In this document: positions 2 through 21,765 of the stretch, piece by piece
Position numbering within the stretch: the first letter of the stretch is position 1
Layout: each line of letters opens with the position of its first letter
Position numbers and translations under genes: made by a program
Notes under the pieces: model-generated
Database searches by the model: none
What the model was told of the DNA's origin: nothing
The model's input: only the letters and a program-made list of their open reading frames with translations
IMG/VR virus record: IMGVR_UViG_2718217860_000003
Reading direction: 5' to 3' (one strand)
DNA length: 35,499 bases
From: a virus
Taxonomy: Duplodnaviria; Heunggongvirae; Uroviricota; Caudoviricetes

Positions 2-1297
2 TTAATTTTTCATTGCTTCGTTATGGGGCATGGTTGGGGCAAACTCGCTTAACTGTGTATTTAACAAAGCTACCTGTGCATTATTGTTTTCAGACATCCA
101 TTTTCCGTATACCTGAAATACCATTTGCGCATCTGCATGGCCCATCTGGTTTGCTATAAATGCCGGGTTAGCACCAGCTGTCAGCGACCAGCAGGCATAA
201 GTATGTCTCGACTGATATGATTTTCGATGGCGGAGTCCGGCACGTTTTATCGCTGCGTCCCACATCTGCCTTATTGAGTCAACGGTAAAATGGTCACCAT
301 AATTTTTTACTCTCGCTGACACTTCAGGTTGAAAAACAAAGGTGCATTTTTGTTTTTCTGTTCTGCCATACTCTCTGAGGTGAACATCAATGATATGCTC
401 TTTGCTCAGTCTCGTTAATGTCATCTGACTCCGGAGAGCGTCGATTGCTGGCTTAATAAGATGAATGACCCGATTGGTTCCTGCCTGTGTTTTTGGTACC
501 GTGAAACGGTCTTTTGCTAAATTTCTCCTGATCATCATTGTTCCATTTTTCAGATCTATGTCCTCCCATCCAAGTGCACACAGCTCACCAGGGCGAACGC
601 CAGTATAAACAGAAACACACCATAAATTTTTTGCTTGCTGATTTCTGCACGCATCGATAAGACGGATAAATTCCTCCCGCGAAAGAGGATCCGGAATGCT
701 TCTTGATTCCTTTAATGGCGAGATCCCCTTAAACGGATTATCTGCCAGGTAACCGTTATCAACACCAAACTGGAACACGGCGTTAAGATTTGTCATGTAA
801 TTATTTACAGTTACAGCCGATCTCCCTGGTTGTGTAACAATATAGTTACTTTTGGGGATCTGGTATCCAGTCAGTAGCTCTTTACGAACCTCCAGTAATT
901 TTTCTTTATTAATCGATGAGGCAAGATTTTTTTCACCGATTATGCTCAGGATATTTTTGATGACGGCACGGTATGTGTTGAGTGATGTTTTGGCGACTTC
1001 AGTTTCTTTCAGTGCCAGAAATTTTTCAGCCAGTTCTTTTATGGTTAAATCTTGTCGGGCCTCACCAAATTTTTCCAGATTGCGTGAGGAGGGAAACTGT
1101 TTTGCATAGTCGAAAACACCAGTTTTTATTGCGTAACAAACAGAGGCGCGTAGTTCACCTGCAACGCGCCTGTTTTTTGCTGTGTCAGGAACCCCCAGAT
1201 TTTCCCTGACTCTTACGCCTTTATAAACAAACCAGATACGTAATTTCCCTCCATGGTTTTCCACGCCTGTCGGATATTTCATTTCAACTTCTCTCAT
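2..1297 (-). CDS. int: Tyrosine site-specific integrase (phage integrase family)
   Basis: 431-aa ORF with a C-terminal H-x-x-R and Tyr-containing region (LRHRKSYQSRHTYAC...VYGKW) typical of tyrosine recombinases; first gene of the prophage, next to an excisionase-like gene. The likely true start is the second Met at 1282 (MKYPTGVE...), preceded by AGAGAAG. Confidence 0.9.
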   Translation of the reverse strand: MREVEMKYPTGVENHGGKLRIWFVYKGVRVRENLGVPDTAKNRRVAGELRASVCYAIKTGVFDYAKQFPSSRNLEKFGEARQDLTIKELAEKFLALKETEVAKTSLNTYRAVIKNILSIIGEKNLASSINKEKLLEVRKELLTGYQIPKSNYIVTQPGRSAVTVNNYMTNLNAVFQFGVDNGYLADNPFKGISPLKESRSIPDPLSREEFIRLIDACRNQQAKNLWCVSVYTGVRPGELCALGWEDIDLKNGTMMIRRNLAKDRFTVPKTQAGTNRVIHLIKPAIDALRSQMTLTRLSKEHIIDVHLREYGRTEKQKCTFVFQPEVSARVKNYGDHFTVDSIRQMWDAAIKRAGLRHRKSYQSRHTYACWSLTAGANPAFIANQMGHADAQMVFQVYGKWMSENNNAQVALLNTQLSEFAPTMPHNEAMKN

Positions 1298-1316
1298 TAG
1301 TTAGTGTGGCTTTTAG

Positions 1317-1568
1317 TCAAGTAAGATGACGTCTTGGTCTCGCTGATGCCTGGCGCTCAATCCAGCGATCAATTTCTTCTAGGTTGTAAAAGCATGGACT
1401 GTTATCCCATGGCATACCGTCATGAGCGACATGCTTATATTCCCTTCCTTCCATAAACGATTTTTCCCGGGCCTTTTTTAACGTACCTTTTTTTATTCCT
1501 TTCAGCGCAATTAACTGCTCTTCGGATACCCATTTGCCGGGAGAGACAATCATGATTACTTCGCTCAT
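1317..1568 (-). CDS. xis: Excisionase-like small DNA-binding protein (Xis/AlpA-like)
   Basis: 83-aa basic ORF immediately upstream of int on the same strand, the canonical xis position. Confidence 0.55.
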   Translation of the reverse strand: MSEVIMIVSPGKWVSEEQLIALKGIKKGTLKKAREKSFMEGREYKHVAHDGMPWDNSPCFYNLEEIDRWIERQASARPRRHLT

Positions 1569-1640
1569 CGATTTCTTTATCTCTTACATCAGACGAGCGC
1601 CGGTTGCAGAATACCAGTCACAACCGGCGACAGTTGAACA

Positions 1641-4148
1641 TTAAGAATCAGCCTGACTCGGGATCAGTTTTTGCCAGATAACTGAAACGTATTTTGCCTG
1701 GTAACGGGCGTCATCAAGTGCATTATGGCGCTCACCTTCGAATGGAATAGCCGTTCTGGCATCGAAGTCTATGGCTTTCCCCAGCTCAACGATTGTGCGT
1801 ACATCGCGATCGTTGTAGTAACGCCACGGGCAGGGGATCCCCTGCCGTTCGTATGAACGGCGCAAAATCGTGTTGTCGAAGTTGGCTCCATTTCCCCAAA
1901 CCTGAACAAAAAATTCACCGGAGTTTTCGTCGATAAATTCTCGCAATTGTAACAGTGCATCATCTAACGGGATTTCATCGGTCATAATGGCAGATTGCGC
2001 TTCGCGTGATTGCTTAAGCCACCATTTAATGGTGTCCCGATCAATGACTCCGCCAGCAGTTTCCAGATCGATAGTCTTACTAAATTCCGGTCCCATATCT
2101 CCGGTTTGCGGATCGAAAAATATTGCACCTATTGAGATGATCGGGGCATCAGGATTTTTTCCCATGGTTTCAAGGTCGATCATTAGATGGTCACACGTCC
2201 TGCTGGTGGATGTGATTCCGTGATGACCGTTCACCTTAATTGGGTGATCTGCCGTCTCGCCAGTTTCATTATCGCTATTGTGATGCTGATTGCCGCCAGT
2301 GTTCTCCTTGTGTGGATGTTCAGCGCCTTCCATTTCCTCCGGATCATCTTCCTGAACTTCAACCTGATACTCTTCATCGAATGTTTCTTGGTATGTTGCG
2401 TCGCCCATCACCGCGCCACAATCAGGGCAGTTGCCGCCGCCGGTCTGACCGCAGGCGGTGCAGACTTTTTCCACTTCCTGTTGCGCTACTGGTTCAGGCT
2501 GTTTCGTTTCTGGCTCGTTTTGTAACGCATTTGGACTGTTTTGTTCCGCTTTTTGGTAGTTCCGTTCCGATTCATGCTGGTTCTGGTTCACAGAATCGCG
2601 GGTCTGGAGCCCCTTAACCCATTTCGGATCATTCGGGTCACTAATCCCTTCAACAAATTCACCACGTGATGCAGCAAGCAACTTATCGGCGTCAGGCTGG
2701 CTGATATTGGCTGCCTGCATAATTTTGTTTACTTCGTCAGCGGTAACTTTTATCGGCTCTGGTTGTTCTGAATCTTCAGCGGTATCTACATTTTGCGGTA
2801 AGCCCGTGTATGTGCCATTTTTTCGGGCAAAATATTCTTCTTTTGTGATTTCAGTGGCGCCAGCAGCCAGTGCCTTATCCAGACCAGAGAGTTTGTTTGC
2901 GCGACCGTATTTTTCTCCGTCCTTATCTGCGAAGAGGAAATAGAACGGCCCCTCACGCTCTACAGATGGTTCAGCTTCCGGCGCGGTTTCATTTTTTGGG
3001 ATATCAGATACCTCAGTTTCCACTGCATCAGTTTGTGTTTCTGATGACTGGAGAACATCAACAGTGCCCAGGTCTGTTTCTTCATTCTCAAACACGCCCT
3101 TTGTCGTCAGGTATTCGCAGATATATTTGTTCAGTGCTACGGGATCTTTGTGAATGTCGATCGGACGCTCACGGACAAGGCCAAAAATAGTTTGGCGGTC
3201 GTAGCGAAGGGCATCAGGCTGTTTGCGCATTGATGCCGAGATACGCTTCCAGTCTTCGCGGTCGTTGTCGATAACTTCTTTTTTTGCCCAGCGATGGATG
3301 CTGCCGTCAATGTTTCCGGCATCCACATCACCAGGCCAGAGAGCGTAGGCCAGTTCGTCATCCAGTGTTTTCCATGTCTGCTTGTATTCGCGATGAATGG
3401 CAGCAATGACCGGGCTGATTTTTCCTGTTGAATTTTCAGTGTACTGTTGATTGGCTCTGGCGCGGGCGAGATCAACAACAGACGTGTATTTTCCGGTTTC
3501 CTTGCGTTCACCTTCGCGACGTTTTTTCCAGATGCGCATCTCTGCCTGAATTTCGGGCCATTTAGCACCAGGAATACATTTATGCTTAACCCACCCAATG
3601 GCGTGCAACTTAAGCTCCGGATACATGGCGTTAACTTCTGGCATTTTCATCAACGCTTCAACGATATGTCCGTCGAATGTTGCCATGTCTTCCTGCAACA
3701 ATTCCTGTGCGCTAATAACCATATCAACGGTGATGTTTTCACATGTGTCGAACTTAACCATGACAGCGTTCTGTACTTCAGGGGCCAGCTTGTCAAAAGT
3801 GACGTTCATCGGATCGGATTCAGTCTCAACCGGGACAAAAGAAGCAGACTCCTCATCCCAGCGGTTTTCCTGCATATATTCAGCATCCCATGAATCGAGG
3901 GCAGGGCGGGGTATGCCAGGTTTATCCTCGCAGACAATAAATTTATAAGCGCAGTCCTGAGCAGCCGGATAATGTTCCAGGAATTGCCAGTGAAATTTTG
4001 CTCGAGCACGGCGTTCGTCGCCAGCTTCAATGGCTGTGGCTACAGCCACAGCGCCTTCTTCCCTTGTTGCCAGTTCGTCAGGAATAGCGGCGCAAATAAA
4101 GACTTTACTCATTTGTTTTAACCTCATGACAGATTTAAGGATGAACAA
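1641..4148 (-). CDS. Large early-region protein with a C-terminal DnaQ-like DEDDh 3'-5' exonuclease domain, a central Cys4 zinc-ribbon-like motif and an acidic low-complexity linker
   Basis: 835-aa ORF. The C-terminus carries Exo I (MIDLETMG), an Exo II-like (GNGANFDNTIL) and Exo III (ERHNALDDARYQ) motif. A Cys cluster CTACGQTGGGNCPDCG lies mid-protein. The more likely start is Met13 at 4112 (MSKVF...) with GAGG 9 nt upstream. Sits in the exo/recE position of lambdoid phages. Confidence 0.8.
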   Translation of the reverse strand: MFILKSVMRLKQMSKVFICAAIPDELATREEGAVAVATAIEAGDERRARAKFHWQFLEHYPAAQDCAYKFIVCEDKPGIPRPALDSWDAEYMQENRWDEESASFVPVETESDPMNVTFDKLAPEVQNAVMVKFDTCENITVDMVISAQELLQEDMATFDGHIVEALMKMPEVNAMYPELKLHAIGWVKHKCIPGAKWPEIQAEMRIWKKRREGERKETGKYTSVVDLARARANQQYTENSTGKISPVIAAIHREYKQTWKTLDDELAYALWPGDVDAGNIDGSIHRWAKKEVIDNDREDWKRISASMRKQPDALRYDRQTIFGLVRERPIDIHKDPVALNKYICEYLTTKGVFENEETDLGTVDVLQSSETQTDAVETEVSDIPKNETAPEAEPSVEREGPFYFLFADKDGEKYGRANKLSGLDKALAAGATEITKEEYFARKNGTYTGLPQNVDTAEDSEQPEPIKVTADEVNKIMQAANISQPDADKLLAASRGEFVEGISDPNDPKWVKGLQTRDSVNQNQHESERNYQKAEQNSPNALQNEPETKQPEPVAQQEVEKVCTACGQTGGGNCPDCGAVMGDATYQETFDEEYQVEVQEDDPEEMEGAEHPHKENTGGNQHHNSDNETGETADHPIKVNGHHGITSTSRTCDHLMIDLETMGKNPDAPIISIGAIFFDPQTGDMGPEFSKTIDLETAGGVIDRDTIKWWLKQSREAQSAIMTDEIPLDDALLQLREFIDENSGEFFVQVWGNGANFDNTILRRSYERQGIPCPWRYYNDRDVRTIVELGKAIDFDARTAIPFEGERHNALDDARYQAKYVSVIWQKLIPSQADS

Positions 4149-4204: not shown

Positions 4205-4396
4205 TTAAAGACCTGCCGGGATTTCGATATTATCCTGGTGAATAACTTTATCGACCGGGTAACAGTTACCGGGAATTTTCTGTTCGGTTGCTGCAGTCAT
4301 ACACTCCTGCATTGTCCTGTGAACACTGACTGCAATATCAACTGGCTCTCCGGAAACAAGAAAAACTGTCAGAACAAGCACAAATGCTGAATTCAT
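4205..4396 (-). CDS. ydfD: YdfD-like small protein (Qin prophage lysis-inducing protein family), N-terminal hydrophobic segment
   Basis: 63-aa product MNSAFVLVLTVFLVSGEPVD... from the internal Met of the 81-aa ORF; its start overlaps the dicB stop as ATGA (translational coupling). Matches the YdfD sequence as recalled. Confidence 0.75.
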   Translation of the reverse strand: MNSAFVLVLTVFLVSGEPVDIAVSVHRTMQECMTAATEQKIPGNCYPVDKVIHQDNIEIPAGL

Positions 4397-4581
4397 TGTG
4401 CACATCCTTTTGGCATCAGACGTAAACGAGCCAGCATTGAAACAATGCATATTTTATTTAATAGCTCCCGTTCTTGTTTTCTCTTGTTAATGGCATCTTC
4501 AGTAAATACTGGGTTACTGATAGTGACACCAATTTCAAAACAACCTTCAGACGTATTAACGTTTGGTAATAACGTTTTCAT
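4393..4581 (-). CDS. dicB: Cell-division inhibitor DicB
   Basis: 62-aa product MKTLLPNVNTSEGCFEIGVTISNPVFTEDAINKRKQERELLNKICIVSMLARLRLMPKGCAQ from the internal Met of the 97-aa ORF; matches DicB as recalled; directly downstream of dicF. Confidence 0.85.
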   Translation of the reverse strand: MKTLLPNVNTSEGCFEIGVTISNPVFTEDAINKRKQERELLNKICIVSMLARLRLMPKGCAQ

Positions 4582-4750
4582 TATCGCGTCCTCAACAATG
4601 AATTTTGTGATGCAGTGCCTGGTGCCTCCAGGTGACGTTAACCAGTTAACAATTAACGCCGGATACAGAGAATCCACCCATAACACTGTTTTTGGTTTTA
4701 ACTGTTCCGCGTGCGCTCAGCCGCATTCACCACATCACAAAATTCACTTT

Positions 4751-4808
4751 AAAAAGGGCGGCAGAGCAGTCACGGAGTAAAACTGATACCGCCAAACGTC
4801 ACCAGAAA
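4751..4808 (-). ncRNA. dicF: DicF small RNA (ftsZ-targeting antisense sRNA) with its intrinsic terminator
   Basis: The minus strand reads UUUCUGGUGACGUUUGGCGGUAUCAGUUUUACUCCGUGACUGCUCUGCCGCCCUUUUU, a GGCGG...CCGCC hairpin followed by a U-run, lying between ydfC and dicB as in the Qin dicB operon. Ends are approximate. Confidence 0.85.
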
Positions 4809-5148
4809 ATTGATAACAGAGGGCGTTGCAGCGGGGTTGTCACTTAAGCGTATGGTCAACCTGACAACCCGGTGTCCTCAACGGGGAAGGAATAACCCCG
4901 CCATACTTACCGCCGCGCCATTTCGCGGGTTGCCACAACCGGAAGCGCACGGTCGACGAAAATTTAACGACAGGCTATCTATGAACCAGCTACCTCGCCG
5001 TGCGCTTTCGCGTTATGGTCTGACTTTTCAGGGAAATATCCTTTCAGTAAACTGTCAGTTCCGGATGCGCACCCGTGTCCGGCGCACGCACTCCACCTCA
5101 CCCGTGGAGAACTCCTTAATTACTAACCTTAGCTTTGTTGATTAGCTA

Positions 5149-5367
5149 CTAACGCGGGTATGTAATCATTCTGGCAATGCTTAATGCCGCTGCTTTTTCC
5201 AGATTGGTGATATCCTGCTCCAGAGCGGACAGATTTTCAGCCTGCTTAGCCCTGGCTTCATTAGCCCATTTCAGATCCTGCGCTGCATTAATTTTCTGGC
5301 GCATCCACTCATAAAGTTCATCATCGGTATAGTCTGGCGCGATGATGACGGGTTCTCGTTTCTGCAT
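5149..5367 (-). CDS. ydfC: YdfC-like prophage protein
   Basis: 72-aa ORF in the conserved position between ydfB and dicF. Confidence 0.7.
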   Translation of the reverse strand: MQKREPVIIAPDYTDDELYEWMRQKINAAQDLKWANEARAKQAENLSALEQDITNLEKAAALSIARMITYPR

Positions 5368-5396
5368 ACTGATTCCTCGCGGTGCTGTTTCGCTTA

Positions 5397-5524
5397 TCAG
5401 CCGTTAGATTTTGCCGAACTGGAAAGCGCCTGTTTAAACTCACTGAAGCTGAGAGCTTCTTCGCCTTCGGCAAGGCCTTCGAAGTATTCTTCGTAAGCCT
5501 TTTCCATGATTGTGTCGAAATCCA
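5397..5524 (-). CDS. ydfB: YdfB-like small acidic protein (42 aa)
   Basis: Not in the ORF track (too short). Manual minus-strand translation from ATG at 5524 gives MDFDTIMEKAYEEYFEGLAEGEEALSFSEFKQALSSSAKSNG*, stopping at 5397-5399. Confidence 0.7.
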
Positions 5525-5526
5525 TA

Positions 5527-5682
5527 TCACTCACCTGAGTTTCTTTCCAGCCAGCGACGGGCACCATTTTCGGTTTTAAACGTTTTGCTTTTGGTATACG
5601 TCATTGCGGTGAACGTGCCGTCCTGGTTTGGAAACACGCCGTACACCAGAGATTCGTTGTTGCCAAGATCGATAGTATCCAT
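5527..5682 (-). CDS. ydfA: YdfA-like small protein (51 aa)
   Basis: Internal Met of the 103-aa ORF gives MDTIDLGNNESLVYGVFPNQDGTFTAMTYTKSKTFKTENGARRWLERNSGE; first gene of the dicB operon, downstream of a DicA-operator-like palindrome. Confidence 0.7.
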   Translation of the reverse strand: MDTIDLGNNESLVYGVFPNQDGTFTAMTYTKSKTFKTENGARRWLERNSGE

Positions 5683-5797
5683 GCTGACCTCATTTCCCCT
5701 TAACGCTGGGGTAGCGGAACTGTTTGCGGAGAACACCGTGCGGTGTGTTGATGGAGGTAATTTAGTTTTCTCATTATTTTTCGTCAAGGTTTTTTGA

Positions 5798-5809
5798 TGA
5801 GAAAACTCA
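5798..5809. promoter_or_regulatory. Operator-like palindrome TGAGAAAACTCA at the ydfA (dicB operon) promoter region
   Basis: Inverted repeat TGAG-AAAA-CTCA between the dicA 3' end and ydfA; a near-identical copy lies in the dicA/dicC divergent region. Confidence 0.5.
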
Positions 5810-5874
5810 AGTGTTGGCGCAAGATAAAGCCAATACATTGAAATGTAAGGCTTTAAAATTTTGTGAAGGGATGA

Positions 5875-6282
5875 TTATTGATGCTTGTTGCGTTTGCGAG
5901 CCTCTAATAGCTCGGTGAACAGGCGATTAAAATTCTCAACGCGGGCGCGGAGTTCGCTGAGTTGTGCTTGTTGCTCTGATTTAGGAAGTGCGCGATACAA
6001 ACGCAGCATCTCTAACTCATCTTCCGATAAGTCTAGGGTACTATCGAGTGAAACAGGGGGAGCTGGTGTTTTGTCCTCGTCGCCAAACAGTATCCAGGTT
6101 GGTGAACATTGCAATACCTCGGCGAGGCGATGCAAATTTTGCCCGCGCGGGGCTGTATGGTCACTTTCCCATAATGAAATTGATGAGCCAGATACGCCAG
6201 CAGCTTTGCTTAAACCGTTTTGACTTAAGCCTACCTGCTTACGTCTTTCTCTAATGCGTTGACCTAAAGTTTTCTCGTTCAT
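5875..6282 (-). CDS. dicA: DicA-like repressor (XRE-family HTH, CI functional analogue)
   Basis: 135-aa product from Met18 (MNEKTLGQRIRERRKQVGLSQNGLSKAAGVS...LQCSPTWILFGDEDK...), closely resembling DicA as recalled; divergent from a dicC-like gene. Confidence 0.85.
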   Translation of the reverse strand: MNEKTLGQRIRERRKQVGLSQNGLSKAAGVSGSSISLWESDHTAPRGQNLHRLAEVLQCSPTWILFGDEDKTPAPPVSLDSTLDLSEDELEMLRLYRALPKSEQQAQLSELRARVENFNRLFTELLEARKRNKHQ

Positions 6283-6332
6283 ATTTAGATATCTTAATAA
6301 TCCTTGACTTGAGATTCCTTGAGTGATTAGCA

Positions 6333-6346
6333 TTGAGAAAACTCAA
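6333..6346. promoter_or_regulatory. Operator-like palindrome TTGAGAAAACTCAA in the dicA/dicC divergent promoter region
   Basis: Perfect inverted repeat 14 nt upstream of the dicC RBS (GGAGG); same core as the site at 5798-5809. Confidence 0.55.
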
Positions 6347-6359
6347 TATTGGAGGTGCG

Positions 6360-6587
6360 ATGTTTAAATCAGACGTAATTAATTTTTACGGTACGAAAGC
6401 CAAAGTAGCGAAAGCTGCTGGCGTTGACCCATCTGCTGTTTCTCAATGGCAAGAGCTAGTTCCTGAAGGTCGCGCGATGCGTCTACAGGAGGCATCTGGC
6501 GGCGAGCTTCTGTATGATCCCAAGGTTTATGACGAATATCGTAAGACGAAGCGGGCGGGGCGGTTGAACAATGAAAATCACTCCTGA
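6360..6587 (+). CDS. dicC: DicC-like Cro-type regulator
   Basis: 75-aa product from the internal ATG (MFKSDVINFYGTKAKVAKAAGV...GRAMRLQEASGGELLYDPKVYDEYRKTKRAGRLNNENHS) with GGAGG upstream; divergent from dicA. Confidence 0.8.
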   Translation: MFKSDVINFYGTKAKVAKAAGVDPSAVSQWQELVPEGRAMRLQEASGGELLYDPKVYDEYRKTKRAGRLNNENHS

Positions 6588-7092
6588 ACAGGCTCGTGAG
6601 GCTCTGGATGCCTGGATATGTCGACCAGGAATGACACAGGAGCAGGCGACGATATTAATCACTGAAGCATTCTGGGCTTTGAAAGAGCGCCCGAACATCG
6701 ATGTTCAGCGTGTCACAGATGAAGGTGGCGCGGTTGATCAGCGAGCGCTTGGCGTTAATCGAGTGAAGATATTCGAACGCTGGAAGGCTATCGACACCAG
6801 GGATAAGCGTGAAAAGTTCACGGCGCTAGTGCCTGCAATTATGGAGGCTATCCGGATTAATGATTTCAGGTTGTATCGTGAAATTAGTGACGGAAAAAGC
6901 ATCACGTACATGATCGCCGGGTTAAACAAAGAATATGGCGATGTGGTGGAGTCCGGACTGCTTTTTGCTGATCCTGCCGTAGTGGATCGTGAAACTGACG
7001 AACTTATAGAAAAAGCAATTGCTTTCAAACTTGCGTATCGACAGCAATACCAACAAAAAGCTGGATGGAATTATGAGCCTTCTTTTTGCTGA
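6571..7092 (+). CDS. Hypothetical early protein in the CII position (possibly a YdaT-family regulatory/toxin-like protein)
   Basis: 173-aa ORF overlapping the dicC stop and the start of the O-like gene. The family assignment is from memory only. Confidence 0.6.
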   Translation: MKITPEQAREALDAWICRPGMTQEQATILITEAFWALKERPNIDVQRVTDEGGAVDQRALGVNRVKIFERWKAIDTRDKREKFTALVPAIMEAIRINDFRLYREISDGKSITYMIAGLNKEYGDVVESGLLFADPAVVDRETDELIEKAIAFKLAYRQQYQQKAGWNYEPSFC

Positions 7093-8753: not shown

Positions 8754-9653
8754 ATGATTGATCCACTTATTAGAAACTTACAGAGTGATATTGCACTACT
8801 CCAGCTTTATATCGCGCAACGCAAACAGGCAGGCTTTCATGACATGGAAAGAATAATTGAGTCATTGACCATCTTTATGTTTCGCGCGCTGAAAATGGGT
8901 GAACTGGTAAACATGAATCAGATTAAAGTTAATTTTCCCGCCATTGATTTAGCTGATAATAAAAACATGATAGCAGTTCAAGTTACTACGAATGCAAGTC
9001 CAGCAAAAATTAAAAAAACTATCGAATCTTTTGAGGAAGCAAATGAAATAGGAGAGAGTCTGAAAGATAAATACTCTACTTTATATATTTTTGGTTTTTG
9101 TAAAGCCTCAAGATACCTAACTCCAAGTTATTGTAAAATAATCGACCCCAGCTATTTCGTGAATGAACTTTGCGATAAAGCAGATGAAGATATGGTCCAG
9201 GATATGATTGACGCCATTCGACGCCATCATGATTATACATCATTACATCCATGGAGTGATAAAGATTCACTCGAAATTATACTCAATATTATTAATCGCA
9301 ATGCAATAAAACATCGGATGAGTTGCGAAGGCAGTCTGTCTGATATGCTCACTGGTTTAAAAGAAATTAATGAAGTAATTACAAAAGGAACAATTCAACG
9401 TAAGCAACGTTCAAAATCGATATCTGACTTCAAAGATCAAAGCATGGTGAAATTTATGAGAGGTGTAATGGATGATTTGTCTGTTATTCAAGCCATAGTG
9501 AACAAATCTAAAGTTAACCAAGGTGATATGGTTTATATAAGCCATGAAGATATGATTAATATTGATAAATTAAAAGCTAAAATAGCAAGTGATTCATCAG
9601 AGATTGCAAGGCTAAATAATATTGATATAACACTAAATGTTGTTGATTTATAA
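8754..9653 (+). CDS. Hypothetical protein encoded in an AT-rich accessory island (candidate defence/abortive-infection-type protein)
   Basis: 299-aa ORF in a visibly AT-rich block; no confident family match. Convergent with the membrane protein/methyltransferase operon. Confidence 0.7.
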   Translation: MIDPLIRNLQSDIALLQLYIAQRKQAGFHDMERIIESLTIFMFRALKMGELVNMNQIKVNFPAIDLADNKNMIAVQVTTNASPAKIKKTIESFEEANEIGESLKDKYSTLYIFGFCKASRYLTPSYCKIIDPSYFVNELCDKADEDMVQDMIDAIRRHHDYTSLHPWSDKDSLEIILNIINRNAIKHRMSCEGSLSDMLTGLKEINEVITKGTIQRKQRSKSISDFKDQSMVKFMRGVMDDLSVIQAIVNKSKVNQGDMVYISHEDMINIDKLKAKIASDSSEIARLNNIDITLNVVDL

Positions 9654-9967
9654 TTGTCGATTTAGCAAAACAGAGAATGCTTTGAAAGTTTCACCGAGAA
9701 ATATTTATTGTGAACCTCCTTATTGTTTATCGACTTTTACTCTCCGCTCATTGCAGTACTGTCGGAGAAGGCTACTATGTACAAGAAGCAGCTAACATAA
9801 GCGAGCATCACTATTGATATTAGGAAGAGTATATAAAAACTTCATGCTGAACCTTACAAAAGTAGGTAAACCGGCAATGGCCTAAGTGGCAGGGTCATGT
9901 TGATCCGGCACTGCCGAGCTAATAATTAACAAGCAAATCACTCTTTCTAATAATTTGTTGAAATAAA

Positions 9968-10627
9968 CTAAATATGTATATGTTTACCAACAACCACATA
10001 TGAACTACCTGCTTTGCTCCATGATTTTATTATTTCTAAATTATTATCTGAGCATATTTTACTTACAGTATCCACATCTAATAAACCATAGTAGAAAGCA
10101 TTACGAGAGTTTTGGTATATATACCCATGCAAATGTTTAATACCGCTCTCGTACCTCTTGAAATAAGAACTTTTGTATTGATTGACAATCAGTGCTTCAC
10201 CATCACTCTTTAATAATTCTCTAATCGCACTGAGGACTTTGTGAATTGTGGATTCACATGGAATTGCGGAAAGCACGTTTGCGCAAAGTATGAAATCATA
10301 ATGATTTGTTATTTTATCTATATTTTCATAAGAAACAATATTAGCATTCTTATAGTTATTTATCACGTAATCTGGAATCGTGGTTTGTACACCTCTGATA
10401 ATTTGCACTCTTTCTAGTTGTCTTCTGGAATCTAAAAATGTCACAGTTTCAAATTTATTTACTAATTGTTCTGAATATCTAAGTTTTCCACATCCAAAAT
10501 CAAGGGCATTGCCATTTTTATTAGTGCTTTCAATCTGTTTACAGAGATAGTTAGATGGCATAGTGTGCGGTTTCGCTGCATTTTCTGAACGTATGTTTAT
10601 TCCATTTATTTTGTAATTCAAAATCAA
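9968..10627 (-). CDS. Class I SAM-dependent methyltransferase (not a recognisable DNA methyltransferase)
   Basis: 219-aa ORF with SAM-binding motif I (ALDFGCGKLRYSEQL), an acidic post-I residue (VTFLDSRRQ) and a motif II-like segment (DFILCANVLSAIP). No DPPY/NPPY or PCQ motifs. Confidence 0.75.
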   Translation of the reverse strand: MILNYKINGINIRSENAAKPHTMPSNYLCKQIESTNKNGNALDFGCGKLRYSEQLVNKFETVTFLDSRRQLERVQIIRGVQTTIPDYVINNYKNANIVSYENIDKITNHYDFILCANVLSAIPCESTIHKVLSAIRELLKSDGEALIVNQYKSSYFKRYESGIKHLHGYIYQNSRNAFYYGLLDVDTVSKICSDNNLEIIKSWSKAGSSYVVVGKHIHI

Positions 10628-10633
10628 CCTCGT

Positions 10634-11341
10634 TTAAAAAATATTGTTATTGTTAAAGAATTCTTTTATTTTGCTATCAGGTATTTGTCTTACTTGGCTT
10701 TCTGTTCTTGGTTTAACTGATGCTATGAAAATAAGGAAGTCAAATGCGACAAGAGAAATAATCCACAACCAAAGATTAATTAAAGAGCCAGTAACAGAGA
10801 ATATATTTGTTAATTTGGCGATACTTATTATTAAAATAGTAACAAATGCGATTACTGTATGTTCAAAGAAAACCCAAAAGTAATAAACTTTGTTCCAGAA
10901 AAGTTCAACGTAATGTTTGTCTTTTAACTCTTTAACTTCTGGGTAATACAGTTTACTCATTACCTTGTGAGATTCATCAGTAGTTAATTTTCTCGTAACG
11001 CCTGCAATTTTTGCTAATGGTTTAATAATTAAATGACTATCCCACATCTTCCTTATTCCAATAATTTTTGCTACATTATTATGTAGATCTAAAGCTCCAC
11101 TAATTACTGACCAAAAAACTGAAGATGCAATTGGTAATATGCCAAAGGTTAATATCCATTTAATAAATTCCTCGTAGTCTTTAACGGGGGGGATATACTT
11201 GGCATTAATGCCAACCAATGGCATGTAGCCATAAATGACTAATGATAGGTAAAATATAAATGTAGTAATAAAAGTCGCCTTATGGAGCATAGGCAACATT
11301 TCATTATAACTCTTTGGTGGTTCTAACATTTTACTCTCCAA
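10634..11341 (-). CDS. Integral membrane protein (about 4 predicted TM helices), function unknown; forms an operon with the downstream methyltransferase
   Basis: 235-aa ORF with several long hydrophobic stretches; its stop lies 6 bp from the methyltransferase start on the same strand. Confidence 0.7.
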   Translation of the reverse strand: MESKMLEPPKSYNEMLPMLHKATFITTFIFYLSLVIYGYMPLVGINAKYIPPVKDYEEFIKWILTFGILPIASSVFWSVISGALDLHNNVAKIIGIRKMWDSHLIIKPLAKIAGVTRKLTTDESHKVMSKLYYPEVKELKDKHYVELFWNKVYYFWVFFEHTVIAFVTILIISIAKLTNIFSVTGSLINLWLWIISLVAFDFLIFIASVKPRTESQVRQIPDSKIKEFFNNNNIF

Positions 11342-21337: not shown

Positions 21338-21638
21338 ATGGATCGAGAGTTGAAAAATCTGACGCTGAATATCAGTCAACTGGCGGCACTGTCAGGTGTA
21401 CATCGCCAGACTGCTGCGGCAAGGCTGCAAAATCTACCCGTTGCAGGGGGGCATGAAAGCAACCTCAAGCTTTATCGGGTGGTTGATATTGTGTCGGCAT
21501 TTCTGGCATTGCCACCGCCGGTTGCAGAAGGCGAAATGGACGCGCATGAGCGCAAAGCCTGGTATCAGTCTGAACGTGAGCGTCTTAAGTTCGAACAGGA
21601 AACGGCACAACTCATTCCGGCCAGTGATGTCAGACGGG
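21338..21638 (+). CDS. Terminase small subunit (Nu1/NohA-like), 3'-truncated by the assembly gap
   Basis: N-terminal HTH-like segment (LNISQLAALSGVHRQTAAARL); the ORF runs into the N-run. Confidence 0.6.
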
Positions 21639-21738
21639 NNNNNNNNNNNNNNNNNNNNNNNNNNNNNNNNNNNNNNNNNNNNNNNNNNNNNNNNNNNNNN
21701 NNNNNNNNNNNNNNNNNNNNNNNNNNNNNNNNNNNNNN
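21639..21738. other. Assembly gap (100 N) between terminase and tail gene M
   Basis: Run of 100 ambiguous bases; terminase-large through tail gene H are absent from the window. Confidence 0.99.
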
Positions 21739-21765
21739 TGGTCGGTTAAGTGGAGCATATCGGTA

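What the first reader, a model, noticed from the sequence alone, without database searches (positions are those of the whole stretch)
1641..4148. Intact large exonuclease-domain fusion protein in the recombination slot
The gene in the exo/recE position encodes a protein of over 800 aa whose last roughly 180 residues carry the three DEDDh motifs of DnaQ/RNase T-type 3'-5' exonucleases, not the PD-(D/E)xK fold of RecE or lambda Exo. Upstream are a Cys4 cluster (CTACGQTGGGNCPDCG) and a long acidic low-complexity linker. No Bet/RecT-like annealase gene is visible next to it. As recalled, the K-12 Qin counterpart (ydfE) is a pseudogene fragment interrupted by an IS element, so this may be an intact copy of a poorly characterised phage nuclease.
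Basis: partly seen in the sequence, partly recalled or inferred. Interest (0 to 1): 0.55.

Follow-up and report, generated by a model that had tools for sequence, protein, structure and literature searches.

The report
RecE-like prophage protein with DnaQ-type exonuclease
This is the intact form of the E. coli K-12 pseudogene ydfE: a common, already catalogued but never tested prophage protein that keeps the front part of the recombination nuclease RecE and carries a 3'-to-5' DnaQ/DexA-type exonuclease in place of RecE's own nuclease.

Summary
Window 1641-4112 (-) encodes an 823-aa protein. The 835-aa ORF from TTG 4148 is the mechanical maximum; ATG 4112 has a GAGG Shine-Dalgarno sequence. Residues 641-823 are a DEDDh exonuclease (Pfam PF16473, E=2.5e-67). 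All five catalytic residues are present: D646, E648, D746, H796, D801. The best structural match is T4 DexA. K-12 ydfE equals the first 256 residues and is then cut by IS2.

The Cys4 knuckle and acidic linker are 65-70% identical to Rac RecE. Homology stops at RecE codon ~591, where its PD-(D/E)xK domain begins. Both N-terminal scaffold types (Qin-type and RecE-type) occur with either nuclease head. RecT followed the gene in all 5 RecE-head loci, which are copies of one prophage, Rac. It followed none of the 10 DEDDh-head loci.

All modules are under purifying selection. The prophage encodes no annealase and is Chi-rich.

The exact protein sits on 518 contigs in the protein collection, in a cluster of 23,183 members. 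Relatives covering at least 80% of the gene occur in 3489 of 5426 complete E. coli genomes. DnaQ-type nuclease genes near int in lambdoid phages were reported in 2025. Verdict: real, correctly read, already catalogued, biochemically untested. Interest is modest.

The parts
1641..4112 (-). Coding sequence of the 823-aa exonuclease (intact ydfE orthologue; identical to RefSeq WP_000048328.1). Stop codon TAA is at 1641-1643.
   Evidence: ORF; PGAP start and product name; full-length match to phrog_2082; coordinates checked by translation.
4122..4125 (-). Shine-Dalgarno-like GAGG, 9 nt upstream of ATG 4112. The TTG at 4146-4148 is only the mechanical ORF start.
   Evidence: Sequence read directly.
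3333..4112 (-). N1 module, residues 1-260 (the part surviving in K-12 as ydfE). AF2 models residues 1-205 confidently as an alpha/beta plus helical domain with no known fold relative. It is distantly related to the RecE N-terminal domain.
2718..3332 (-). N2 module, residues 261-465. It contains a helical domain (245-343), an acidic disordered stretch (344-385) and a small beta/alpha domain (390-432). It is homologous to the middle region of RecE.
   Evidence: NCBIfam RecE model NF007259 aligns residues 258-636 to profile positions 271-601; BLASTP against RecE E=1e-60; AF2; dN/dS 0.28-0.30.
2193..2717 (-). Connector, residues 466-640. It holds the conserved DKLLAASRGEFVEGISDPNDPKWVKG motif, a Q/N/E-rich stretch, the Cys4 knuckle and an acidic/His-rich linker. 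It is mostly disordered and is shared with Rac RecE.
   Evidence: 65-69% identity to RecE 451-592; AF2 pLDDT mostly below 60; dN/dS 0.36-0.48.
2418..2462 (-). Cys4 zinc-knuckle-like motif CTACGQTGGGNCPDC (C-x2-C-x9-C-x2-C), residues 551-565.
   Evidence: Regex and translation. It is present in the E. coli-type connectors of both RecE-head and DEDDh-head proteins and absent from more divergent long homologues. AF2 pLDDT is 70-76. Metal binding was not tested.
1644..2192 (-). DEDDh (DnaQ/DexA/Rv2179c-type) 3'-5' exonuclease domain, residues 641-823. Catalytic codons: D646 (2175-2177), E648 (2169-2171), D746 (1875-1877), H796 (1725-1727), D801 (1710-1712).
   Evidence: Pfam PF16473 E=2.5e-67; PDB sequence hit to T4 DexA 8KEL, E=1.5e-6; invariant catalytic columns; AF2 pLDDT ~95; Foldseek best hits DexA at E=5e-12, then RNase T and REXO2/Orn; dN/dS 0.15 at dS 1.13.
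4205..4807 (-). Upstream genes of the same leftward operon: ydfD (4205-4396), dicB (4393-4581) and DicF sRNA (4756-4807).
   Evidence: PGAP annotation of a near-identical genome (window = locus minus 703); Rfam DicF at 76.7 bits; K-12 gene order.
2..1568 (-). Downstream genes: excisionase (1317-1568) and tyrosine integrase (2-1282). No recT or other annealase lies between them and the exonuclease.
   Evidence: Pfam DUF1233 excisionase; tblastn with RecT negative.

Best explanation
The gene is the intact orthologue of K-12 ydfE. It is the last gene before xis-int of the early-left (dicBF) operon of a Qin/DicB-type lambdoid prophage.

The product is modular. A structured RecE-type N-terminal scaffold (~residues 1-432) is joined to a DexA/Rv2179c-type DEDDh head. 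The join is a ~170-residue, mostly disordered, acidic connector that carries a Cys4 knuckle.

Shown:
- domain identities and intact catalytic residues;
- purifying selection on every module;
- a homology break with RecE exactly at the start of RecE's nuclease domain;
- absence of any annealase gene.

Inferred:
- The head is a two-metal-ion 3'-to-5' exonuclease acting on free 3'-OH ends. DNA is the more likely substrate, because its closest solved relative and its swap partner are both DNases.
- The gene is transcribed with dicB/ydfD when the DicA/CI-type repressor is lifted.
- The scaffold brings the head to whatever target RecE's scaffold recognises.
- The enzyme trims 3' tails or ends of phage or host DNA during lytic growth, much as T4 DexA does in host-DNA breakdown and in widening double-strand-break gaps.
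- It does not form a RecET/Red-type exonuclease-annealase pair. The phage leaves strand exchange to host RecBCD-Chi-RecA.

Confidence in the molecular identity is about 0.9. Confidence in the biological role is about 0.35.
For: Molecular identity:
- Pfam PF16473, E=2.5e-67.
- DEDDh residues invariant.
- AF2 head pLDDT ~95; Foldseek best hits T4 DexA at E=5e-12, then RNase T.

RecE scaffold:
- NF007259 aligns 258-636.
- BLASTP 1e-60, near-identical over the connector.
- hhalign N1 against RecE-N gives 82% probability.
- DNA homology to Rac recE ends at codon ~591. The solved RecE nuclease is 605-866.

Interchangeable heads:
- P0124 and the L007-L010 genes combine a RecE-type N-terminus with a DEDDh head at 99-100% identity.
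- P0156 and P0138 combine a Qin-type N-terminus with a PD-(D/E)xK head.

RecT linkage: 0 of 10 DEDDh-head loci and 5 of 5 RecE-head loci have recT (contexts).

Selection: dN/dS is N1 0.08-0.11, head 0.15, N2 ~0.29, connector 0.36-0.48.

Occurrence: relatives cover at least 80% of the gene in 3489 of 5426 complete E. coli genomes, and the gene is in records deposited as phage genomes.

No phage recombination system:
- No annealase in the prophage.
- 8 Chi sites against 1.0 expected, 6 of them on the + strand. This fits the 'no Rec module, high Chi' class of Zheng et al. 2025, PMC12315714.

Against: - No activity has been measured for this protein or any close relative.
- The Pfam family is named after an exoribonuclease, so RNA remains a possible substrate.
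- 3'-5' exonucleases usually inhibit homologous recombination. Zheng et al. also note that DnaQ-type genes next to int may not belong to Rec modules.
- The scaffold has no recognisable fold or partner, so 'targeting' is conjecture.
- Co-transcription with dicB is inferred from gene order only. Promoter and terminator scans were uninformative.
- K-12 lost the gene without any known phenotype.
- The window's own prophage has lost about 12 kb of morphogenesis genes, so here the gene may be idle.
- The RecT association rests on few loci, and the five RecE-head loci are all the same Rac prophage.
Confidence: 0.6

Rival explanations
1. It is a true functional replacement for RecE or lambda Exo in phage recombination. 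The DEDDh head would resect DNA ends 3'-to-5', and the resulting single strands would be used by host RecA or by an unrecognised annealase.
For: It shares its scaffold and genomic position with RecE, and the heads are exchanged precisely at the linker. T4 DexA takes part in double-strand-break repair during intron homing (PMC12153337). Zheng et al. found DnaQ-type nucleases packed inside bona fide Rec modules of some lambdoid phages, for example epsilon34.
Against: No annealase gene was found in this prophage or in any of the 10 DEDDh-head loci. 5' overhangs are not RecA substrates in the canonical pathway. 3'-5' exonucleases usually inhibit recombination. The Chi-rich genome argues for dependence on RecBCD.
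Confidence: 0.15
2. It is a prophage-encoded defence or superinfection-exclusion nuclease. It would destroy incoming phage nucleic acid, like the E. coli DexA homologue EcD (5hmC DNA of T4) or the ISG20-like TONDO exonucleases (3' ends of RNA phages).
For: EcD is a stand-alone member of the same Pfam-type family, 38% identical to this head, and protects against T4 (PMC12153337). DEDDh exonucleases with auxiliary domains in prophages defend against MS2/Qbeta (PMC13344964). dicB in the same operon protects against some phages (title of PMC6832061). The gene is kept intact in many defective prophages.
Against: DexA's 5hmC-recognition residues W152 and D169 are W132 and E145 in EcD but Y766 and K779 here. 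The tetramer residue D90 (A78 in EcD) is D718 here. PADLOC gives only a generic Cas-associated DEDDh hit, E=1.7e-5. The gene sits in the repressed early-left operon, not in a lysogen-expressed moron position. It is also carried by records deposited as phage genomes. TONDOs are a different, ISG20-like clade of under 500 aa.
Confidence: 0.15
3. It is an anti-defence or host-takeover factor of the phage. It would remove host nucleic-acid species with free 3' ends (retron msDNA, reverse-transcriptase-made cDNA, primers or small RNAs), or degrade host DNA for nucleotides.
For: It is expressed with other host-directed early genes (dicB, ydfD, DicF). The domain family occurs in 1617 phage records, including many lytic phages. 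DexA scavenges host DNA.
Against: There is no direct evidence. No known anti-defence family matched. Temperate lambdoid phages are not known to degrade host DNA.
Confidence: 0.08
4. It is a non-functional relic of a decaying prophage.
For: K-12, an E. albertii copy and a Shigella copy are disrupted. The window's prophage lacks its head and tail genes.
Against: dN/dS is well below 1 in every module, including at dS above 1. All five catalytic residues are intact. At least 80% of the gene is present in 3489 genomes, and it occurs in records deposited as phage genomes.
Confidence: 0.02

Closest known systems
RecE (exonuclease VIII) of the Rac prophage, E. coli K-12
   Same: Similar length and the same position in a leftward early operon of a lambdoid prophage. 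The N-terminal and middle regions are homologous (BLASTP 1e-60; NF007259 aligns 258-636). The connector, with the same motif, Cys4 knuckle and acidic linker, is 65-69% identical. The N-terminal domains are distantly related (hhalign 82%).
   Different: It lacks the PD-(D/E)xK 5'-to-3' dsDNA exonuclease domain (3H4R, residues 605-866) and has a DEDDh 3'-to-5' head instead. It scores 282 bits against the RecE equivalog cutoff of 1269. No recT follows it. Many records nevertheless label it 'exodeoxyribonuclease VIII'.
T4 DexA (exonuclease A; PDB 8KEL/8KEN)
   Same: It is the closest solved structure by both sequence (E=1.5e-6) and fold (Foldseek E=5e-12). The catalytic residues are identical: DexA D7/E9/D119/H186/D191 correspond to D646/E648/D746/H796/D801.
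   Different: Identity is about 21-28%. DexA is a stand-alone 227-aa protein of a lytic phage with extra loops. The 5hmC-recognition residues W152 and D169 are Y766 and K779 here.
EcD, the E. coli 'HREX' DexA homologue (HAK9828821.1; PMC12153337)
   Same: Same domain family. A 189-aa protein fitting EcD's forward cloning primer (exact 17-nt match), its reverse primer apart from one base, and its A78, is 37-39% identical to this head over 183 aa.
   Different: EcD is stand-alone, has A78 at the tetramer position and keeps W132/E145. The window protein has D718, Y766 and K779 and is fused to a 640-residue scaffold. EcD's anti-T4 activity therefore cannot be transferred to it.
DnaQ-type nuclease genes of lambdoid early-left operons (Zheng, Casjens, Davidson, Amundsen, Smith 2025, PMC12315714)
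   Same: [quoted passage not shown] It also reports RecE-related proteins lacking a nuclease domain and a 'no Rec module, high Chi' class. All three points fit this gene and prophage.
   Different: The text I could read does not describe the RecE-scaffold/DEDDh fusion, the exact swap point or the loss of recT with the swap. Its supplementary tables were not available, so I could not see how it classifies mEp460-type phages.
Rv2179c of Mycobacterium tuberculosis (name-giver of PF16473)
   Same: Same Pfam family. The match covers the full model (positions 2-177 of 177).
   Different: From my own knowledge, not checked here: Rv2179c is a stand-alone bacterial 3'-5' exoribonuclease. It was not among the top 50 Foldseek hits.

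Membership tests
DEDDh (DnaQ-like) exonuclease superfamily / Pfam PF16473 Rv2179c-like | Profile match above the curated threshold | tested here: met
   226.4 bits against a cutoff of 27, E=2.5e-67, model positions 2-177 of 177.
DEDDh (DnaQ-like) exonuclease superfamily / Pfam PF16473 Rv2179c-like | Exo I (D-x-E), Exo II (D) and Exo III (H-x4-D) catalytic residues | tested here: met
   D646/E648, D746 and H796/D801 are invariant in alignments with DexA, EcD-like and stand-alone homologues.
DEDDh (DnaQ-like) exonuclease superfamily / Pfam PF16473 Rv2179c-like | RNase H-like alpha/beta fold superposable on solved DEDDh enzymes | tested here: met
   AF2 pLDDT ~95. Foldseek gives DexA at E=5e-12, RNase T at 1e-8 and REXO2/Orn at 1e-7, all with probability 1.00.
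DEDDh (DnaQ-like) exonuclease superfamily / Pfam PF16473 Rv2179c-like | Metal-dependent 3'-to-5' exonuclease activity | not testable with these tools
   Needs purified protein.
RecE / exodeoxyribonuclease VIII (NCBIfam NF007259 equivalog) | Full-length profile score above the equivalog cutoff | tested here: not met
   281.9 bits against a cutoff of 1269; only profile positions 271-601 of 877 align.
RecE / exodeoxyribonuclease VIII (NCBIfam NF007259 equivalog) | C-terminal PD-(D/E)xK 5'-3' exonuclease domain (3H4R; PF12684-type) | tested here: not met
   No Pfam hit. Protein and DNA homology to RecE stop at RecE residue ~591. The solved domain is 605-866.
RecE / exodeoxyribonuclease VIII (NCBIfam NF007259 equivalog) | RecE-type N-terminal/middle scaffold and connector | tested here: met
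   BLASTP 1e-60; connector 65-69% identical; hhalign of N1 against RecE-N gives probability 82%, E=1e-5.
Two-component exonuclease-annealase recombinase (RecET, Red alpha/beta) | An adjacent single-strand annealing protein gene (RecT, Bet, Erf, Sak...) | tested here: not met
   None in the PGAP annotation of the prophage. None by Pfam in unannotated ORFs. RecT tblastn was negative in 10 DEDDh-head loci and positive in 5 RecE-head loci. Only RecT was searched by tblastn; other annealase families were covered for the window only.
HREX / EcD-type 5hmC-specific DexA homologues (PMC12153337) | Trp and acidic residue equivalent to DexA W152 and D169 | tested here: not met
   Y766 and K779 lie at the aligned columns; EcD-like has W132 and E145. 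The D169 column is in a variable loop, where another alignment placed A, so this is moderately secure.
HREX / EcD-type 5hmC-specific DexA homologues (PMC12153337) | Loss of the tetramer-forming Asp (DexA D90; A78 in EcD) | tested here: not met
   D718 is retained at that column.
'No Rec module, high Chi' lambdoid phages (LLS type; PMC12315714) | No annealase, SSB or anti-RecBCD gene in the early-left operon | tested here: met
   Whether that paper's authors would count the DnaQ-type gene as a Rec-module gene is unknown.
'No Rec module, high Chi' lambdoid phages (LLS type; PMC12315714) | Abundant Chi (8 or more) in the active orientation | tested here: inconclusive
   8 Chi sites against 1.02 expected, with 0 of 100 shuffles reaching 8. 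Only 6 are on the + strand, and the window holds a prophage with a ~12 kb deletion.
TONDO / ISG20-like defence exonucleases (PMC13344964) | Membership of the ISG20-like DEDDh clade and defence against RNA phage | not tested
   No TONDO sequences were available. The paper restricted candidates to under 500 aa and ISG20-like hits.

The most novel reading that the evidence does not exclude
The RecE-type N-terminal region, whose function is still unknown even in RecE, may be an autonomous targeting platform. Lambdoid phages would mount interchangeable nuclease heads on it:
- a PD-(D/E)xK 5'-3' head that travels with recT;
- a DEDDh 3'-5' head that travels alone;
- a phrog_7838-type head;
- or no head at all.

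On this reading the DEDDh version defines an annealase-independent end-processing or counter-defence activity. That activity would be typical of Chi-rich lambdoid phages that rely on host RecBCD.
Probability: 0.25. Interest if true: 0.55.

Novelty: already known. Interest (0 to 1): 0.3.

Why it matters
The matter is mostly one of annotation and experimental opportunity.

- Annotation. The gene is very common: relatives cover at least 80% of it in 3489 of 5426 complete E. coli genomes. Many records call it 'exodeoxyribonuclease VIII', yet it lacks RecE's nuclease and should have the opposite polarity. The K-12 reference carries only a 256-residue stump, which is probably why nobody has studied it.
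- Experimental opportunity. Nature has supplied head-swapped pairs on 70-100% identical scaffolds. These offer a clean way to ask what the ~600-residue N-terminal part of RecE does, which remains unknown. They also allow a test of whether a 3'-5' exonuclease helps or restrains recombination in phages that depend on RecBCD and Chi.

Tried and rejected
- The search for homologous proteins with the N-terminus returned only E. coli sequences at 88% identity or more, useless for depth. The alignment for AF2 had to use representatives.
- The search for related loci in genome contigs gave only 10 loci, so the RecT association rests on a small, partly redundant sample.
- One literature query was badly chosen: 'RecE' matched 'receptor'.
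- The supplementary tables of Zheng et al. are not held.
- Is EcD this protein? No. Its cloning primers do not match the window, and it was not among the top 120 homologues. An EcD-like protein was then recovered from IMG/VR by an exact match to the forward primer. The reverse primer gave no exact hit and differs from the recovered gene by one base. The protein is only 38% identical to this head.
- PADLOC gave only a generic Cas-associated DEDDh hit.
- Promoter and terminator scans were no better than shuffles.
- Decay/pseudogene reading: rejected on dN/dS.
- The small + strand ORFs overlapping 1641-4148 have no support in any annotation.
Full report
**1. What is at the coordinates**

An uninterrupted ORF runs from 4148 to 1641 on the minus strand, 835 aa from a TTG. 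The probable start is the ATG at 4112. It is preceded at 9 nt by GAGG, and NCBI's PGAP annotation pipeline uses it as the start in a genome where the gene is 100% identical. The product is then 823 aa. All residue numbers below use that numbering.

The exact protein is on 518 contigs of the protein collection. Its 90% cluster has 23,183 members, named 'exonuclease' or '3'-5' exoribonuclease'.

**2. Where the window comes from**

The window is a Qin-type lambdoid prophage of E. coli, inserted next to rspB exactly like Qin of K-12. The leftward gene order is repressor, ydfA, ydfB, ydfC, DicF, dicB, ydfD, this gene, xis, int.

K-12 ydfE is identical to residues 1-256 and then runs into IS2E.

**3. 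The C-terminal head**

- Pfam PF16473 (Rv2179c-like 3'-5' exoribonuclease) matches over its whole length: E=2.5e-67, 226 bits against a cutoff of 27. PF00929 (RNase_T) is weak, and no PD-(D/E)xK family is hit.
- The only PDB sequence hits are 8KEL and 8KEN, T4 DexA.
- In alignments with a T4-type DexA, an EcD-like protein and stand-alone enterobacterial homologues, D646, E648, D746, H796 and D801 occupy the invariant DEDDh columns.
- An AF2 model of residues 466-823 gives pLDDT ~95 for residues 640-816.
- Foldseek against the PDB ranks DexA first (E=5e-12), then RNase T, then REXO2/oligoribonuclease.

**4.

- The NCBIfam RecE equivalog aligns residues 258-636 to profile positions 271-601. The total score is far below the cutoff, 282 against 1269 bits.
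- BLASTP against K-12 RecE gives E=1e-60. The two proteins are nearly identical over the stretch that holds DKLLAASRGEFV(E/D)GISDPNDPKWVKG, the Cys4 knuckle (CTACGQTGGGNCPDC against CNACGQTGGDNCPDC) and the acidic linker.
- Similarity ends at RecE residue ~591. At the DNA level, homology between a RecE-N/DEDDh gene and Rac recE also ends at codon ~591.
- The only solved part of RecE is 605-866, the nuclease.
- The first 260 residues look unrelated by BLAST. A profile-profile comparison with RecE-type N-termini gives 82% probability (E=1e-5) over 185 columns.

The protein is therefore a RecE-family scaffold whose nuclease head has been exchanged.

**5. The heads are interchangeable cassettes**

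I searched 1.8 billion representative proteins and then compared modules.

| N-terminal scaffold | Head | Examples |
|---|---|---|
| Qin-type | DEDDh | the window protein |
| RecE-type (72-99.6% identical to Rac RecE) | DEDDh (99-100% identical to the window's) | P0124; prophages at potC, tRNA-Ser, ompW and ynfA |
| Qin-type | PD-(D/E)xK | P0156, P0138 |
| RecE-type | PD-(D/E)xK | Rac RecE |
| Qin-type | phrog_7838 'exonuclease' | P0136, P0148, P0149, P0177, P0230 |
| Qin-type | uncharacterised C-terminus of phrog_26058 | P0130 |

The Cys4 knuckle is present only in the E. coli-type connectors. It occurs there with either head.

**6. RecT travels with the PD-(D/E)xK head only**

In ten loci with a DEDDh head, tblastn with RecT found nothing. 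These came from E. coli, E. albertii, E. ruysiae, Shigella and phage records, at five different attachment sites. Where flanking sequence exists, the next genes are xis and int.

In five loci with the RecE head, recT overlaps the end of the gene (annotations). The sample is small, and the five RecE loci are all the same Rac prophage. Within it the pattern has no exceptions.

In the window itself, no annealase appears in the PGAP annotation or in Pfam scans of unannotated ORFs.

**7. The gene is maintained by selection**

I computed pairwise Nei-Gojobori dN/dS against the mEp460, Evi and E. albertii alleles.

| Module | dN/dS |
|---|---|
| N1 | 0.08-0.11 |
| N2 | 0.28-0.30 |
| Connector | 0.36-0.48 |
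| Head | 0.15 (at dS 1.13 against Evi) |

A fourth comparison, against a near-identical E. ruysiae allele, was uninformative because dS was ~0.01. dS differs several-fold between modules of the same pair, which is a further sign of intragenic mosaicism. Relatives of the gene cover at least 80% of its length in 3489 of 5426 complete E. coli genomes. It also occurs in records deposited as phage genomes: PhiR42_1, HannyBb, Tritos, mEp460_ev081, Evi and the PPompW phages.

**8. Context for function**

The window has 8 Chi sites (GCTGGTGG) against 1.0 expected from shuffles. Six are on the + strand, which runs in the lambda-map direction towards the lysis genes.

[quoted passage not shown] They propose that these phages use host RecBCD. 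They also report three further points:
- DnaQ-like 3'-to-5' nuclease genes occur in lambdoid phages.
- 'RecE-2' proteins exist that lack a nuclease domain.

This gene and prophage fit that picture. The existence of such genes is therefore already in the literature, although the text I could read does not describe the RecE-scaffold fusion or the swap point.

**9. Functional precedents for the head**

- T4 DexA scavenges host DNA and acts in intron homing (PMC12153337).
- The same paper shows that an E. coli homologue, EcD, degrades 5hmC DNA and protects against T4.
- I recovered a 189-aa EcD-like protein from IMG/VR by an exact match to the forward cloning primer. The reverse primer fits its 3' end apart from one base. 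Its A78 aligns with DexA D90, exactly as the paper states. It is 37-39% identical to the window's head.
- The residues the paper ties to 5hmC recognition, DexA W152 and D169 (EcD W132 and E145), are Y766 and K779 here. D90 is retained as D718. EcD's specificity therefore cannot be transferred.
- ISG20-like 'TONDO' exonucleases with auxiliary domains in prophages defend against RNA phages (PMC13344964). They are a different clade.
- PADLOC gives only a generic DEDDh hit.

**10. Most likely mechanism**

Shown:
- a catalytically intact DEDDh head;
- a RecE-type scaffold;
- a disordered tether;
- no annealase;
- purifying selection on every module.

Inferred:
- The protein is made with dicB and ydfD when the early-left operon is derepressed.
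- The head removes nucleotides from free 3' ends. DNA is the likelier substrate, because both the nearest structure and the swap partner are DNases.
- The scaffold directs it to the same, still unknown, target as RecE's scaffold.
- The biological role is trimming DNA ends or 3' tails during lytic replication in a phage that leaves strand exchange to RecBCD-Chi-RecA.

I put about 0.9 on the molecular identity and about 0.35 on that role. The rivals are a true RecE-like recombination role (0.15), defence or exclusion (0.15), anti-defence or host takeover (0.08) and a decaying relic (0.02).

**11. Novelty and verdict**

The protein is already catalogued in RefSeq, UniRef and PHROG 2082, and newer Pfam accessions PF27430 and PF27432 are precomputed on it. 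The general phenomenon was published in 2025.

I found no experimental study of this protein, or of ydfE beyond its pseudogene status. That is a useful handle on the unknown function of RecE's N-terminal 600 residues, but it is not a surprise of kind. Interest is 0.3.

Noticed in passing
window 21638-21739 (junction); compare L004 22340-34541: Relative to the otherwise 99.99% identical prophage of strain CFSAN064035, the window lacks about 12.2 kb carrying terminase, portal, capsid, tail tube and tape-measure genes. The window's prophage is therefore defective in morphogenesis although int, xis and the exonuclease are intact.
   Followed up: partly
window 2202, 11634, 13267, 16266, 19248, 19672 (+); 13673, 19766 (-): There are eight Chi sites (GCTGGTGG) against 1.02 expected from shuffles (0 of 100 reach 8). 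All lie between 2.2 and 19.8 kb and are mostly in the + orientation. One lies inside the exonuclease gene, on the antisense strand. This fits the 'no Rec module, high Chi' lambdoid class of Zheng et al. 2025.
   Followed up: partly
window 1599-1628 (-), between the exonuclease stop and the xis start: A G+C-rich hairpin (GCCGGTTG...CAACCGGC, extended to ~10 pairs) sits in the 72-nt spacer. As RNA it folds at -20.8 kcal/mol, z = -2.2, and 4 of 200 shuffles fold as well. No T-run follows it, so it is not a typical intrinsic terminator. It could be a processing or retroregulation site.
   Followed up: partly
window 8754-11329: A low-GC island (0.31-0.37) holds a SMEK-domain protein, a class I SAM-dependent methyltransferase and a 231-aa protein with no Pfam hit. 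hokD/sok follows at ~11.9-12.2 kb. This looks like accessory or defence-type cargo between the replication and nin regions.
   Followed up: no
proteins P0130, P0136, P0148, P0149, P0177, P0230: Long proteins with a Qin-type N-terminal scaffold carry neither a DEDDh head nor a RecE-type head. Five have a phrog_7838 'exonuclease' C-terminus with no Pfam hit. One has the uncharacterised C-terminus of phrog_26058. They may correspond to the 'RecE-2' proteins of Zheng et al.
   Followed up: partly
L014 (E. albertii) 6502-7043; L015 (Shigella flexneri) 4620-7060: In these two genomes the orthologous gene matches in several reading frames, so it is frameshifted or degraded. These are independent pseudogenisations in addition to the IS2 hit in K-12.
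   Followed up: no
L013 (contig labelled MAG Veillonella parvula); L020 (Nitrolancea hollandica, 514-nt contig); L017 (MAG 'Proteobacteria bacterium'): Contigs attributed to unrelated organisms carry E. coli prophage sequence at 94-100% protein identity (dicB, the exonuclease, xis, or recE/recT). The likeliest cause is mis-binning or contamination in the public assemblies.
   Followed up: no
whole gene; phage records: Many phage and prophage records name this protein 'exodeoxyribonuclease VIII' or 'exonuclease VIII, ds DNA exonuclease'. It lacks RecE's nuclease domain and should have the opposite polarity, so the name has been propagated from the shared scaffold.
   Followed up: yes
L006 6025-6597 (phage phiSTEC1575-Stx2k): [quoted passage not shown] The head therefore occupies the same position with or without the scaffold.
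   Followed up: partly
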